Below, in pieces: positions 1,340 through 55,707 of a stretch of DNA of 64,000 bases. The notes below the pieces were generated by a model, which searched no databases, was not told where the DNA came from, and saw only the letters and a program-made list of their open reading frames with translations. Where the stretch lies: positions 112,964,001-113,028,000 of the forward strand of contig NC_042997.1 of assembly GCF_006345805.1 (NCBI RefSeq), written 5' to 3'. This DNA is from Octopus sinensis (lineage: Eukaryota). Made by a program: the position numbers and the translations under genes. Position 1 is the stretch's first letter; every line of letters begins with the position of its first letter.

Positions 1340-1622
1340 TCGCTTTTGGATTGCAAGATTCTTTATATGAGTTCGTGTGTTGAAGCATATTCTGTTGTGT
1401 CTGGGGAGAGTCATTTTCTTTTTGTGTCTTATAATTTAACAGACTCACCTGTAAAATTTCCACTTTTTTTTCTTCTTATTTTTATTGTCCTAAAATTTTC
1501 GTTGCATCTTGCAACCTTTTCAATAGTTTTGAAGAATAAAAATAAGAAAAAAAAAGTGGAAATTTTACCATTGAGTATATTACATAAGGCACAAAAAGAA
1601 AATTATTCTCCCCAGACACAAC
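1340..1622. mobile_element. Fold-back (asymmetric inverted) insert with 12-bp TSD, Penelope-pLTR-like
   Basis: TSD gaaatatagttt at 1328-1339 and 1623-1634; empty site present in the paralogous intron near 33880; inner arms tgtgtctggggaga / tctccccagacaca. Confidence 0.75.
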
Positions 1623-15699: not shown

Positions 15700-17500
15700 C
15701 ATCCAGTGAGGCTGATTGCTTGGGCCAGCCTGACTACCCCTCTCCATCCCTCCTCATCCTCCATTAATGTTTTTAGGTCTTCAACTTGACATCCAAGATC
15801 TTCTGCAAGCTGTTCTATATATACTCTTCCGTGGTCTTCCAGCTGCTGTGGTACCATGATTTGGTGTCCACAGCAACACATTATTCACAAGTTCTTCACT
15901 TCTTCAGCAGTGGCCAACAAACCTCAATCTTCACTCTTGGACGGCTGATGAGAAACATTCCCTTATAACCGTGGTTTTATTGGGTGCTCCTTCCAAGAGA
16001 TGTTGAGCACTGCATGTAAGATTCTGGTGTAGGCACCGTCCAGCATGCACCTATGTCTCTTGGTGAGAGTCCAAGTCAGAGATCCATATACAAACACAGA
16101 TTCAACAACTGCTCTGAAAAATTGTCTTTCAATTTATCTGGTAGGGTTGATTTCCATATTGTTCTAAGACCATCTTTCGCTGCCCAATATTGTTCTAAGG
16201 CCATCTTTCCATATTGTTCTAAGACCATCTTTCCATATTGTTCTAAGACCATCTTTCGCTGCCCAAGCCTTAGCAATGCAAGATTTAATATCTTTTTCAG
16301 GGGACATAATATTGCTGCCATTTTTCAAGGGCTTCTGTTTGATGTTCCTGATTTCACCTGATGTGTTCAGGGTGATAAACTCTGTTTTCTTTTCATTCAC
16401 ATATAGTCTTATATTTGCAGCAGCATTTTCCAGGAGATGGAGTAAATGTTCAGTAGCTTTTGTGCTGTCTGTGAAGAGCACTCTGTCATCAGTATAACTG
16501 GTATCACTCAAGCAGGCTGCTGGATATTTTCTGCTTCTAGACTTTTGTAAAGTGAAACCCAGATCATTGTGTTAATCTATTGGGGTACACAATACTTAAT
16601 CAAGACACAGGATGAACAAGTAAGGAGCTACTGTGCCACCCTATAGTACTCCTGCATGAACATCAAGGGAGTCAGCATTTCCATCTGGTGACTGCACTTT
16701 TGCTTAGGTGTTTTTATACAGCATTATTACTACATTTATTTTTCGTTTTTGGATTTGGTTTGCAAGATTCTTTATATGAGTTCGTGTGTTGAAGCATATT
16801 CTATTGTGTCTGGGGAGAGTAATTTTCTTTTTGTGCCTTATAATGTAACACACTCACTGGTAAAATTTCTACTTTTTTCTTATTTTTATTGTCCTAAAAT
16901 TTTCGTTTTTGTTGCATCTTGAACTATTGAAAATGTTGCAAGATGCAACGAAAACGAAAATTTTAGGACAATAAAAATAAGAAAAATGTAGAAATTTTAC
17001 CGGTGAGTGTGTTACATAATAAGGCACAAAAAGAAAATTACTCTCCCCAGACACAATAGAATACTGCATTTATTGTTTCGTCAGGGATTCCATATTCCGT
17101 AATGATTTCTGCCATCTTATCTCTGCGTACAGAGTCAAAGGCCTTGGAGAAATCAACAAAGAGCAGAACTGCATTAAGGTTTTTGGCTCGTACTCCTTCC
17201 AACATCCTCCTAACTGTGAGAATTTGACCAGATGTAGAGCGGGTCTTCCTCAATCCATTTTGATTTTTCTTAAGAACTCTTTCAATTTGAGGTTGGATTC
17301 GATTGAGTAGAAATGCATTATAAATCTTCACTACAATTGGTGTTAATGTAATTCCTCTGTAGTTCATTGCAAAGCCCAGATTCCCTTTTTTGAGGAAAGG
17401 CAGAATACATCCTTCTGTCCAGATTTTTATCTCACTTTGAGAAGAATGTCTTGAAATTGCTGGTTTTCTAGACTCCAGGAAGGATGTCGTCCAATCTTGC
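15700..17500 (-). mobile_element. RTE-like LINE ORF2 remnant (RT and 3' region)
   Basis: NYRGITL...QNGLRK.RST...FVDFSKAFDSV and YTDD; frameshifts; short tandem expansion at 16176-16260; interrupted by the fold-back insert. Confidence 0.85.
16741..17061. mobile_element. Second fold-back insert of the same family, inside an RTE remnant
   Basis: TSD tactacatttatt (16728-16740) / tactgcatttatt (17062-17074); long left arm followed by a shorter inverted arm. Confidence 0.75.
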
Positions 17501-34473: not shown

Positions 34474-35058
34474 ACACACACACATTCTTGGTTAACAAGA
34501 ACACAGTCTGCTAACATTGACTTTAACTATGCCTTATAAATATATCATAAGATCAGCAGAAAGTTTCTCCAGAACTTTCTTTTTGTATTTCAAATAATTT
34601 ACTCTCATAGAAAACCAAAAGCAATATTAAATGGTTCCATAAGGTGGCACGTTGGCTGAATTGTGTACACTGAGCAAAATACTTTGTGACATTTTGCCCA
34701 TCTTTACATTCTGAGTTCAAATTCTGCTGAAGTTGGCTTTGTCTTTTATTTTTTGCAGTCAAGAAAATAAGTACCCGTTAAGCCCAGGGGTTGAAGTAAT
34801 TGTCTTGATCCTTTCCGCAAAACTGCTGGCCTTGTGAAGCCAAAAATTTGAAACTAATGTTAAAAGGTTCCATAAATTATACCGACTTTATTGCAATGTT
34901 GCTAGTTCTGTCTTCAGCCAACATTCATTAGTCTCATCACAAATAAACTACTTTATCTCTTGTATTAATAAGTGTTTCTATTAATCCTTCATTTAAAATT
35001 TATTGTTTATAAAACAGATTTCACTTTAGTTCTAAATGTGTTATCTTTTATTTTTCAG

Positions 35059-35792
35059 TGTTGGTTTTTTCATACATTTACAGTCGCAGAGAAAACATTG
35101 AACCACAAAACTTCCAAGTAATTTCAAAAGTAGAAAAGCTCCCTCTTATTTGTATTGCTTGGGGAGTTTATTCCATTGTACTTTTTCTAAAAGTGTTGTT
35201 TTGCTTTGAGAACTTTTCTGTCACATTAGGCAAAAAGGATAATTTGGGTCCAAATATCCTAAAATTAACGCTTGCACTTTCTGCCCCGCTCTTTCTAATT
35301 TATTTGCTGTGTCAGGTCAGCACCTCTCCAGACAATGAGAATAGGAGATATATTGACAGAATAACATCAGGTGTTACCATTGACATTTTTGACACAGTTG
35401 ACTTTTTGGACATCCTTTTTGTTCACCAGTCCAAAGTACTTCTGTCATTTGCAATGACAAAAACGATCTTAGGTTTTTCTTTGATTAATATATTTATGCC
35501 TTTAATTCCTCTGTTTCTTGTTAGTCACTCGCATTATGGTAAAATCAAATTAAGAGACAATTTTATGAACCTGTACCGCATTTTAATGATAGTGATAATC
35601 AATGTTCCATATTTGGTTATTCGTTTACGCTTAATCCATATCTATGGGCACAATATGTCTATATTCCTGATTAAGAATTTCCTTTCAATCTTTATTGCTT
35701 TTATTAATATCTATGAGAGAAAACAACAGCAAAAATTTGAAGAAATTCCCACCAGAGCTGCCGAAGGAAGTACCACTCAGGATAAGGTATAA
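35059..35792 (+). CDS. TMEM121: TMEM121/CECR6-family multipass membrane protein, coding exon 2 (terminal)
   Basis: Acceptor ttatcttttatttttcag|tg completes GTG (Val) and is followed by an open frame to TAA at 35792; spliced total 299 aa. Several TM helices, plus DIFDTVDFLDILF and INVPYLVIRL motifs like those of the TMEM121/CECR6 family. Confidence 0.82.
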
Positions 35793-52990: not shown

Positions 52991-53566
52991 CGGTGGTTCT
53001 CAAACTGGAGTTCCCTAAGGGACCACAAAACGAATTTAGAGGCACCACAAAGGGACACTGAAGTATTGTGAAAACAGGGTGGTGACTTCAGACAGTTAAC
53101 TTTAAAGATTCCAAGACTTTCAATTTTTCACATGCTATCATCCTTTTTTGTCATTGACCTCAAAACCCTGCGCCTCTCCTACACACTGATTTGCTAATCA
53201 CACTTGTTGTACATCAGGTGTGATTAGCTGATGGAAAATATGCAGGTATAATTGTTGATTGCGCATGTGATGTTGGTATTCTACACTCACATGATTCACC
53301 ACTCTGCTATTGCAATCCACATGTTTGCATGTCTCTTACCATTGTTATCTGTATTGGTGCATGTTCCCACATTGTATTGGTGCATGTTCCCCTTTGCCAG
53401 ACACCCATTCTCATCCCAGTTCGTAGTCCAGAAATTAGGGTACACGAATGTATATCATTTTTTTTTTCATGTTAATTATCCTGCATTTTATAAGGAACCA
53501 CAAATCATTGATAAAAGTGTAGGGAGACCGGCACGTAAAATTCTTTGAAAAGTTTGAGAACCACTG
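52991..53566. mobile_element. hAT (Charlie-like) non-autonomous element
   Basis: TIR cggtggttctcaaact / agtttgagaaccactg; 8-bp TSD atctacac / atctgcac. Confidence 0.8.
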
Positions 53567-53798
53567 ATCTGCACCATCTGAAGCATTTTAGGAGATAATT
53601 TCATCAGAAAGTATCCATCTTTTTGGTAGTTATGAGAAAACAAAGCCGGTGAGGTCTATTTGTGTAGATATATCCTTTTCCTTAACCTTTAGCACACTGC
53701 ATTTTCTCTAGAATTGTCTCCCCTGGAACTATCCTGTTACTACAGGGGAGAAAACTCACAGTGACATGATGCACATACAGTGTGTTAAATGTTGATGG

Positions 53799-54316
53799 CT
53801 TCCACATTGGGCCCTCGCAAAGAGTGAGATACTGTAGCAGAACCATAAGAATTGCCAGATCTGGGTTGTCATAGGATATTTGTACAGGCACGGTAAGGTA
53901 GAGGTAAGCAGATTCTTCTGAACCGATACCGATAATCACATGTGGATTGGGAATTGCCTCAAGTGGCTGGATATACTCTGATGTGCGCCTTAAGAAGGGT
54001 CTTGATTTATCAGTACATTGTTCACAAGAGTCAGGTATAAATGTTTTCCATGGCTGCTCTGGTGGCACATCAAGTTTCAACAACTTCAGGTTAGCAGTCA
54101 TATGGATACACAAATTATCACCCTTCGTCAAAACTGAACGAAGTTTCTCCATTTTCTCAATGACACCATCAGGATTGGTGTCTAGCTGGGCCAGCACATC
54201 AGTGAGGAACTTGCTCTGTCGCAGCATACTAGTAACCGATATGTTGGAGTCTCTATTGTACAACAAGCTATAAAGAACAGTTCTGACTACAGCTGGACCA
54301 CGCCGTTTCAACATAG
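53799..54316 (-). pseudogene. Intronless fragment of an M16C/presequence-protease-like (C05D11.1-like) metallopeptidase gene
   Basis: About 172 uninterrupted codons with GIGSEESAYL, YDNPDLAILMVLLQYLTLCEGPMW, resembling the C-terminal part of C05D11.1-like proteins. Recognisable homology stops after PMW; no introns; no complete gene. Confidence 0.7.
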
Positions 54317-54434
54317 GAACAGCGTGGTCCAGCTGTAGTCAGAACTGTTCTTTATAGCTTGTTGTACAATAGAGACTCCAACATATCGGTTACTAGTATG
54401 CTGCGACAGAGCAAGTTCCTCACTGATGTGCTGG
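54191..54434. repeat. Perfect 113-bp inverted repeat (arms 54191-54303 and 54322-54434, 18-nt spacer)
   Basis: Base-by-base reverse-complement match ccagcacatc...ggaccacgc / gcgtggtcc...gatgtgctgg. Confidence 0.95.
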
Positions 54435-54467
54435 AAAAGTCTTGTGATTATCTCCCCTTCTTATAAG

Positions 54468-54545
54468 CTTGCTCCAATTGCCATTTGGGAATTATGCCAC
54501 ATCTGGAGATCTACCATGGATGATCCATTATACAAATGTTTGAAA
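54468..54545 (+). CDS. Weak candidate exon (phase 0-0)
   Basis: ccccttcttataag acceptor and AAA|gtaatc donor; open frame LAPIAIWELCHIWRSTMDDPLYKCLK; phase does not match 51981 directly. Confidence 0.25.
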
Positions 54546-55707
54546 GTAATCTTAAATTAGACCCCTTTTTTTTATGATTCTTTTAATGTTCATTTTTCTG
54601 TCCTTTTGTATTTTATTCTGTGTATTGTGAATGTATCTCTTATCTTTCATTGCGGAAGAAGAAGTTGTTAATGTTTTCTCTTTCTTCTTTTAACCTTCTC
54701 TGACATGTTGTATTCTGTCTTATTGTTGACGTTGTCGTCACCACCGCCATCATCATTGTCATTGTCATCACCATCATTATCATCATTATCATCATCATGG
54801 TTTGCCACTGTTGCCACCATCACTACTGCCACCAGCACCATCAGCCATTCAAGAATTTGGACCTGCAGATCTCCATTTCCAGCGACTTCGAGGGCCACCA
54901 CCCCATTGGTGTCGGGCGTCAACGAAAAGCCCTCAACTACAACAAGATGACCAAAGTTTTTTTTTCCAAGGTCTGGGGTCTCCCGCCCCTAAGCCCTAGA
55001 CCATCACCTAATCACCCTTACCCGTTTTGTTGCTTAACAACAACAACCAGCACCATCAGCTTCATCATCATCATCACTCATCATCATTGCCACTACCATC
55101 ACTATCACAACCACTACCACCATCTTCATCGTCATCATCATCTTTTAAAGTCCACTTTTCCATGCTTGCTTGGGTCAGACGGTTAATTGAGGCAGATGTT
55201 TTTTAGCTGGATGCCCTTCCTGTCACCAACACTCACTTGTTTCTATAACAATATAATAAATGTGCCTTTTTAAAGCCTAGCCAGGCTCATGAGCTCAGTT
55301 TCCCGGTTCCTATGGCATATGTGTTCTCCAGCTGGACGAGACACCAGTCCATCATAGCATTACTCATTTTTGCCAGCTGAGTGGACTGGAGCAACATGAA
55401 ATGAAATGTTTTGCTCAAGAACATAATGTGTCGCCCGGTCCAGGAATCGAAGCCACAATCTTATGATCATGGTGCTGACACCCTAACCACTAAGCTACGC
55501 GCCTCCACCACTTGTTTCTATGCAAAGTAATATTTCCTTATGATGTTCCATCATTGAGATGTTGATGGTAGTGTTAATAGTGGCACCAATGAAGATGATG
55601 ATGAGTAGAAGGAGGAGGAGGATGGGGAAGAAAGGAGATGAGGAAGAGGCTGTCAATCTTTCCTCCTGTTTCAAATTTGCATGATTTCTAACGATTACTT
55701 TTGCCAG

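What the first reader, a model, noticed from the sequence alone, without database searches (positions are those of the whole stretch)
53799..54434. Intronless host-gene fragment capped by a perfect 113-bp fold-back hairpin inside another gene's intron
Seen: about 172 open, intron-free codons on the minus strand, whose 5' end is copied back as an exact 113-bp inverted repeat with an 18-nt spacer, no poly(A) and no clear TSD. Perfect arms imply a recent event. Knowledge: the peptide resembles M16C/C05D11.1-like metallopeptidases; long perfect hairpins are ADAR and Dicer substrates; Penelope-like elements leave asymmetric inverted ends. Inference: an mRNA fragment was reverse-transcribed and inserted by the fold-back mechanism seen in the Penelope-like inserts of this window. 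Transcribed within the + strand pre-mRNA, it could give hairpin siRNA or antisense RNA against the parent gene, and it ends 33 nt before a candidate acceptor (54467).
Basis: partly seen in the sequence, partly recalled or inferred. Interest (0 to 1): 0.75.

Follow-up and report, generated by a model that had tools for sequence, protein, structure and literature searches.

The report
Fresh mRNA copy with hairpin end
A 524-base piece of a peptidase gene's spliced messenger RNA has been copied into another chromosome of an octopus, where only some chromosome copies carry it, and its end likely folded back during insertion to leave a perfect hairpin; nothing found shows that it is transcribed or does anything.

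Summary
Real and recent. Window 53798-54321 (minus strand) copies four exons of a C05D11.1-like M16 peptidase gene on contig C3, crosses 3 exon junctions and differs at 1 of 524 bases. Arms 54191-54303 and 54322-54434 are exact (113 bp, 18-nt loop). Public DNA runs show the empty site: 10 target bases were lost, with 2-bp and 3-bp microhomology at the ends; run X1 holds both alleles, X2 and X6 only the empty one. Both ends lie inside exons; the target matches the mRNA 9 of 10 only at that junction, so priming was likely homology-guided. This is a class-2-type templated insertion polymorphism with a snap-back-type 5' end, both known. Not supported: a host intron, the 54467 acceptor, any transcription. 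Perfect hairpins are common here (6 in 724 kb). Penelope-type copies in this genome do show the same topology (4 of 28, against 0 of 20 LINE copies; not significant), but the 30 short Penelope-like inserts checked mostly carry target duplications, so the enzyme is unresolved. The scan noted a Penelope fold-back scar before in another genome. Interest 0.35.

The parts
53798..54321 (-). Retrocopy of an internal 524-nt piece of the spliced C05D11.1-like mRNA (parent G000:C3:97570978-97574565); exon joints near 54252/3, 54163/4 and 54001/2; both ends inside exons
   Evidence: four exon matches, 99-100%; three RNA-like contigs match the whole piece colinearly
54191..54303 (+). Arm 1 of the hairpin, part of the long (direct) copy
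54304..54321 (+). 18-nt loop, continuing the direct copy to its 5'-truncation point; its last 5-6 bases can pair weakly back on 54305-54309 (one G-T pair, terminal mismatch)
   Evidence: the free cDNA end does not fold stably on its own
54322..54434 (+). Arm 2, exact reverse complement of arm 1, spanning the 54252/3 exon joint
   Evidence: right junction inferred in X1 from bin depths
53798..53799 (+). Left junction: 2-bp microhomology between target and mRNA; the 10 deleted target bases plus the next 3 resemble the insert's first bases
   Evidence: an X1 contig spans 53770-53827
54432..54434 (+). Right junction: 3-bp microhomology (TGG) shared by arm 2 and the target
54009..54009 (-). Only difference from the parent (C to T on the mRNA strand, synonymous); not an A-to-I type change
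53682..53795 (.). Older multi-copy element with inverted ends (MITE-like), ending 4 bases left of the insertion; not part of the insert
   Evidence: many copies, 83-91%; loose ends at 53682 and 53793
54466..54467 (+).

Best explanation
This is a recent, still polymorphic copy of an internal piece of a spliced peptidase mRNA, likely reverse-transcribed from a broken or nicked chromosome end that had paired with the mRNA, and whose new DNA end likely folded back and copied 113 bases of itself before joining the other end; it is probably a functionless insertion scar. Shown: spliced origin, empty allele, 10-bp target loss, 2-bp and 3-bp microhomologies, no poly(A). Inferred: (1) the + strand target end paired with the mRNA through a 9-of-10 match and primed cDNA internally, about 630 nt before the end of the RNA contigs; (2) cDNA ran 522 nt and stopped at 54321; (3) its 3' end snapped back on 54305-54309 and was extended 113 nt; (4) the extended end joined the right target end by TGG. 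The enzyme is not identified; my odds are LINE RT 0.45, Penelope-type RT 0.35, a repair polymerase such as Pol theta 0.2 (recalled knowledge).
For: Four exons joined at 3 junctions, 1 difference in 524 nt, no second copy found in G000. Empty site with 10 other letters in 3 of 4 DNA-type runs laid (X1, X2, X6). X1 also has contigs across the left junction and two exon joints at depth 2.9-4.4, against 2.8 for the empty joint; bin depths leave a residual of about 2.8 across the right junction. The 10-base target stretch has one match of 8 or more of 10 in 2907 nt of parent exons, at the junction; 13 of 2599 sliding positions reach 9 under a looser null. The loop belongs to the long copy, as self-priming predicts. 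Snap-back junctions followed by joining to the target are described for R2 insertions (PMC11371274, PMC11204384). L1 twin-priming overlaps are short: median 12 bp, quartiles 4-17 (PMC12016303); 1-10 bp (PMC11702581).
Against: No X1 contig crosses the turn at 54321/2, and the parent contig runs unbroken through that point, so arm length rests on the assembly. The free cDNA end has no stable fold (0 to -1.9 kcal/mol): the snap-back would use only 4-5 pairs and a terminal mismatch. By duplex energy the junction is only tied fourth among mRNA sites. The product keeps the mRNA letters, not the target letters, across the paired stretch, which needs an extra trimming step. Two Penelope-type copies with the same topology have the loop in the inverted copy (L109, L113), which simple snap-back cannot give.
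Confidence: 0.6

Rival explanations
1. Two-end (twin) priming: both broken target ends primed cDNA on the mRNA, the right end internally through TGG, and the two overlapping cDNAs annealed near the RNA's 5' break. A Penelope-type RT is the natural agent.
For: Gives the same final sequence. A lizard PLE protein cleaves and extends both strands and starts inside its RNA (PMC11167929). In G000, 4 of 28 young RT/GIY-YIG copies carry 5' inverted duplicates of 90 to over 300 bp, against 0 of 20 LINE copies with a visible 5' end. The short family at window 1340-1620 has fixed outer ends and a variable turn in the 30 loci fetched. Of the 5 other perfect hairpins in 724 kb, 2 adjoin GIY-YIG-type ORFs and none adjoined a recognised LINE ORF.
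Against: 4/28 versus 0/20 gives p = 0.13, and 0.25 without the query copy. 17 of 30 short Penelope-like inserts have a flanking duplicate of 10 or more bases in AT-rich DNA; this site lost 10 bases. Published PLE mobilisation of a host gene kept introns and needed pLTRs (PMC3846280); neither applies here. A 113-131 nt overlap needs two RNAs or long strand displacement.
Confidence: 0.27
2. The insertion is real but the second arm or its length is an assembly or chimeric-read artefact.
For: No short-read contig over the turn; arms are perfect; the right junction is inferred from depth arithmetic, not listed.
Against: The sequence returns to the correct right flank at the point where X1's flank contig begins (54432), and the residual depth there equals that of the other single-allele junctions. 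Hairpin tips are often lost in short-read contigs (own knowledge).
Confidence: 0.06
3. The hairpin is transcribed within a host transcript and yields siRNA or antisense RNA that lowers the parent mRNA.
For: Arms are identical to the parent mRNA and fold at -241 kcal/mol. Pseudogene-derived endo-siRNA is in print (search listing and abstract start of PMC3616710). One 153-nt contig of depth 3.9 in RNA-like run X10 covers flank 54632-54700.
Against: No host exon found. The three RNA-like runs show only the parent mRNA, with no arm 2, junction or exon after 54467, though their donors may not carry the allele. The allele is polymorphic and such hairpins are common in this genome.
Confidence: 0.07

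Closest known systems
Class 2 templated sequence insertion polymorphisms (PMC5110952; first half of the text read)
   Same: Polymorphic insert templated from a distant locus, spliced cDNA among known donors, no TSD, no poly(A), microdeletion and microhomology at the junctions.
   Different: Adds a 113-bp inverted self-copy and an extended imperfect target-mRNA match at the priming end; the parts read describe human cases and no fold-back.
Snap-back 5' junctions of R2-protein insertions (PMC11371274, PMC11204384; passages read)
   Same: cDNA 3' end primes antisense synthesis on itself and then joins the target.
   Different: Those are engineered templates at the rDNA site in cultured cells with a required 3' module; this is a natural, inherited insert of a host mRNA, internally primed.
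Inverted 5'-truncated copies of Penelope-like elements (PMC8557442 passages, PMC3846280 passages and Discussion, PMC11167929 main text)
   Same: Long copy, loop, shorter inverted duplicate at the 5' end; reverse transcription starts inside the RNA with no poly(A).
   Different: No pLTR, tail or element sequence, introns removed, target deleted instead of duplicated, start site homologous to the target (the lizard PLE start site is not).
L1 processed pseudogenes with 5' inversion by twin priming (PMC12016303, PMC11702581; passages read)
   Same: Spliced mRNA copy with an inverted 5' piece and microhomology at the outer junction.
   Different: Those mostly have poly(A) and a TSD, and the inverted piece overlaps the direct one by about 12 bp; here it is wholly a duplicate of 113 bp.

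Membership tests
Retrocopy (processed pseudogene fragment) | Crosses exon junctions of a parent elsewhere in the genome | tested here: met
   3 junctions, parent on C3; colinear with RNA contigs
Class 2 TSIP | Presence/absence polymorphism with intact donor | tested here: met
   Empty joint in X1, X2, X6; filled junctions in X1; donor intact
Class 2 TSIP | No TSD of 5 or more bases, no poly(A); microdeletion and microhomology | tested here: met
   10-bp loss, 2-bp and 3-bp microhomology
Class 2 TSIP | Patch of a pre-existing double-strand break rather than an endonuclease nick | not testable with these tools
   Junction features fit but do not show the origin of the break
Class 1 TSIP / canonical L1 processed pseudogene | Poly(A) tail and TSD | tested here: not met
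   3' end is 34 nt inside an exon, about 630 nt before the end of RNA contigs; target deleted
Snap-back junction | Inverted piece duplicates cDNA next to the 5' end, loop in the first strand, then joins target | tested here: met
Snap-back junction | Turn confirmed in reads independent of the assembly | tested here: inconclusive
   No X1 contig over 54321/2
Penelope-mediated insertion | 5' inverted truncated duplicate | tested here: met
   Same topology as L109, L113
Penelope-mediated insertion | pLTR or tail sequence in the insert | tested here: not met
   All 637 inserted-region bases map to the parent mRNA or its reverse complement
Penelope-mediated insertion | AT-rich target with TSD | tested here: not met
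   Target lost 10 bases; 17 of 30 local Penelope-like inserts show duplicates of 10 or more bases; PMC3846280 also reports PLE inserts without TSD
Hairpin endo-siRNA locus | Long perfect stem matching a target mRNA | tested here: met
Hairpin endo-siRNA locus | Transcribed and diced into small RNAs | tested here: inconclusive
   0 of 3 RNA-like runs hold arm 2 or a junction; contigs only, carrier status unknown, no small-RNA data

The most novel reading that the evidence does not exclude
A Penelope-type reverse transcriptase, needing no poly(A) or pLTR, copies spliced host mRNAs at sites chosen by RNA-DNA pairing and caps them with an inverted duplicate, so that octopus genomes gain ready-made hairpins against their own genes in a single step. 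This allele would be one caught before fixation. Probability is for the Penelope origin with homology-guided priming; that the hairpin also silences its parent is about 0.05.
Probability: 0.25. Interest if true: 0.7.

Novelty: new member of a known kind. Interest (0 to 1): 0.35.

Why it matters
It is a clean record of how an RNA copy enters a cephalopod germline without poly(A) priming: donor, empty site and filled site are all readable, and one animal seems to carry both alleles. It gives a search image (spliced fragment, target loss, terminal inverted duplicate) for counting such events and asking which reverse transcriptase makes them. A carrier-versus-non-carrier comparison would test directly whether a newborn hairpin can touch its parent gene in an animal with heavy A-to-I editing (recalled). 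As it stands it is one insertion scar with no shown function.

Tried and rejected
DNA-level copy of one exon: rejected, 3 junctions crossed. Host gene: Pfam scan of 144 open frames (93 in the window, 51 of the 135 listed downstream ones) gave transposase-type hits, one zinc-finger frame 68 kb past the window that I read as a LINE end (recalled), and three weak hits below cut-off; a splice-and-codon scan found only upstream exons and recovered 8 of 22 parent exons as control, so absence is weak. Lack of RNA cover over arm 2 and after 54467 is a hole in contigs, not proof. Run X3 showed neither the empty joint nor the insert junctions: uninformative. Pfam on the fragment itself: no hit. Rfam on 7 hairpin-bearing loci listed no hammerhead among the 150 of 164 rows shown. 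Pfam and PDB did not name the Penelope-type ORF of L130; the label rests on recalled motifs plus homologues (2 of 120 listed with RVT_1, 1 named GIY-YIG endonuclease). The Atlas could not read that ORF. In one search, 5 of 9 flagged Penelope-type rows and 9 of 9 flagged LINE rows were dropped as microsatellite or flank matches; L160 has a diverged head-to-head LINE neighbour, not counted. Captured A-to-I edits: none among 143 sense-strand A. One search was translated in the wrong frame.

Full report
Observation. The arms are exact over 113 bp (54191-54303 and 54322-54434) with an 18-nt spacer. As RNA the stretch folds at -241 kcal/mol, z = -35, 0 of 200 shuffles as stable. The minus strand from 54320 to 53799 is 174 open codons, identical to residues 676-849 of P0001, a 1017-aa protein that its source names 'uncharacterized protein C05D11.1 [Octopus sinensis]'. 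P0001 has Peptidase_M16, M16C_assoc (below cut-off) and Peptidase_M16_C matches, all before residue 664; the HxxEH motif is at residue 60. The copied piece therefore lacks the catalytic site.

Origin. A DNA search of the own genome found the parent on contig C3 as four separate exon matches and no second copy of the fragment. The insert joins them at three exon junctions and differs at one base, 54009. It starts inside one exon and ends 34 nt before the donor of another; RNA-like contigs of 3 of 3 runs match it colinearly and go on for 630-670 nt 3' of it. So it is a copy of an internal piece of spliced mRNA, not primed at a poly(A) tail.

Empty site and polymorphism. In 3 of 4 runs laid (X1, X2, X6) a contig joins 53799 to 54432 with 10 other letters between. 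X6's contig runs unbroken from 53696 to 54720. X1 also has contigs across the left junction (53770-53827, depth 3.0) and across two exon joints (depth 4.4 and 2.9), with the empty joint at 2.8. Subtracting listed contigs from two depth bins leaves about 2.8 across the right junction (inferred, that contig is among the 11 not shown). X1 is thus probably heterozygous; it may be the assembled animal and is not independent. No contig crosses the hairpin turn. The insertion removed 10 target bases and shares 2 bases with the left flank and 3 (TGG) with the right.

Priming. The last 7 deleted bases plus TGG match the insert's start at 9 of 10. That is the only match of 8 or more in 2907 nt of parent exons; under a looser null 13 of 2599 overlapping positions reach 9. 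By duplex energy, using RNA parameters as a proxy, the site is only tied fourth. I infer that target-mRNA pairing chose the start and that the primer was trimmed back, because the product keeps the mRNA letters. The + strand is then first-strand cDNA, running rightwards to 54321.

The fold-back. The loop continues the long copy, and its last bases can pair weakly on 54305-54309, though the free end has no stable fold. Self-priming followed by joining to the target is the 'snap-back' junction class of R2-protein insertions (PMC11371274 and PMC11204384, passages). Twin priming from both target ends would give the same sequence, but L1 overlaps are short (median 12 bp, PMC12016303; 1-10 bp, PMC11702581; passages). 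The other features fit class 2 templated insertion polymorphisms (PMC5110952, parts 1-2 of 4).

Is it Penelope's doing? In 723,800 bases (window, 260 kb of flanks and parent locus, 40 arbitrary 10-kb stretches) 6 of 139 inverted repeats were perfect, 90 bp or longer, with loops under 100 nt, this one included. Perfect hairpins are therefore common here. Of the other 5, two adjoin GIY-YIG-type frames and three are unclassified and lie among TA repeats. L075 is a 5'-truncated copy of a young RT/GIY-YIG family (label from recalled motifs; Pfam silent) with the same topology. In that family 4 of 28 copies have 5' inverted duplicates; in a young LINE family (RTE-type by recalled motif) 0 of 20 with a visible 5' end do (after dropping 5 and 9 microsatellite or flank rows); p = 0.13, or 0.25 without the query. 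The short inverted family at window 1340-1620 has fixed outer ends, a variable turn, and flanking duplicates of 10 or more bases in 17 of 30 loci, 5 of them in TA repeats (loci chosen by likeness to an inverted query). In two ORF-family copies the loop lies in the inverted arm, unlike here. A lizard PLE protein extends both strands and starts internally at a site not homologous to the target (PMC11167929, parts 1-2 of 4); published PLE transfer of a host gene kept introns and pLTRs (PMC3846280, passages and Discussion).

Host gene and function. The nearest + strand coding frame is a TMEM121-family ORF that stops at 35789; a Rab GDI-like gene ends about 23 kb left of the window. No host exon was found near or past the insert (weak tests), and none of three RNA-like runs covers arm 2, a junction or the candidate exon (carriers unknown). 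A long non-coding intron cannot be excluded. Pseudogene hairpin siRNAs exist (PMC3616710, listing and abstract start only), but nothing here shows transcription.

Novelty. Searches listed no paper whose title or abstract start describes a natural spliced-mRNA insert with a snap-back end, a Penelope-made intronless retrocopy, or an octopus retrocopy polymorphism. The library lacks most subscription papers, and I read no supplementary tables; insertion catalogues there may hold such cases. One earlier AI note (e1-9351275) reports a Penelope insert with a fold-back copy of flanking DNA in another genome; not checked here. Verdict: a real, recent, polymorphic retrocopy fragment of a known kind with an uncommon end; interest 0.35.

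Noticed in passing
window 1340-1620 and 16745-17063; loci L079-L108: Abundant short element with an asymmetric inverted structure: both outer ends fixed, about 45-nt unpaired tail on one side, turn point different in each copy, 10-15 bp flanking duplicates. The inversion seems to be made anew at each insertion. No Rfam hammerhead hit in the one copy scanned (L080).
   Followed up: partly
L075:7478-8139; loci L109-L138: Young RT/GIY-YIG (Penelope-type) family, copies 95-98% alike, with 5' inverted duplicates in 4 of 28 copies; in two the loop is in the inverted arm, which argues for priming from both target ends.
   Followed up: partly
L024:2107-2468, L068:6777-7105, L050:6902-7101, L014:1402-1600: Further perfect hairpins of 98-138 bp; three such hairpins in 400 kb of arbitrary stretches extrapolate to roughly 20,000 in the genome, a large pool of potential double-stranded RNA.
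   Followed up: partly
window 53682-53795: Multi-copy MITE-like element with TTAA-type inverted ends; the insertion lies 4 bases from its right end, perhaps by chance.
   Followed up: partly
window 35013-35789 (+): TMEM121/CECR6-family coding frame (PF14997, E 2e-38), ending in a stop; upstream exons not traced.
   Followed up: partly
L031:6206-6472 (+) and L032:7713-7864 (+): Last exons of a Rab GDP dissociation inhibitor-like gene (PF00996 for the L031 frame; the other by recalled likeness), 23-32 kb left of the window.
   Followed up: partly
run X3 on window 53300-53709 and 54466-54730: Flank contigs are 5 to 13 times deeper than the parent-gene contig, and neither the empty nor the filled junction was listed; unexplained.
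   Followed up: no
loci L139-L168: Very young LINE family (RTE-type by recalled motif), 39 other listed copies 99% alike over 226 bases, ending in GAT repeats: an active reverse transcriptase source in this genome.
   Followed up: partly
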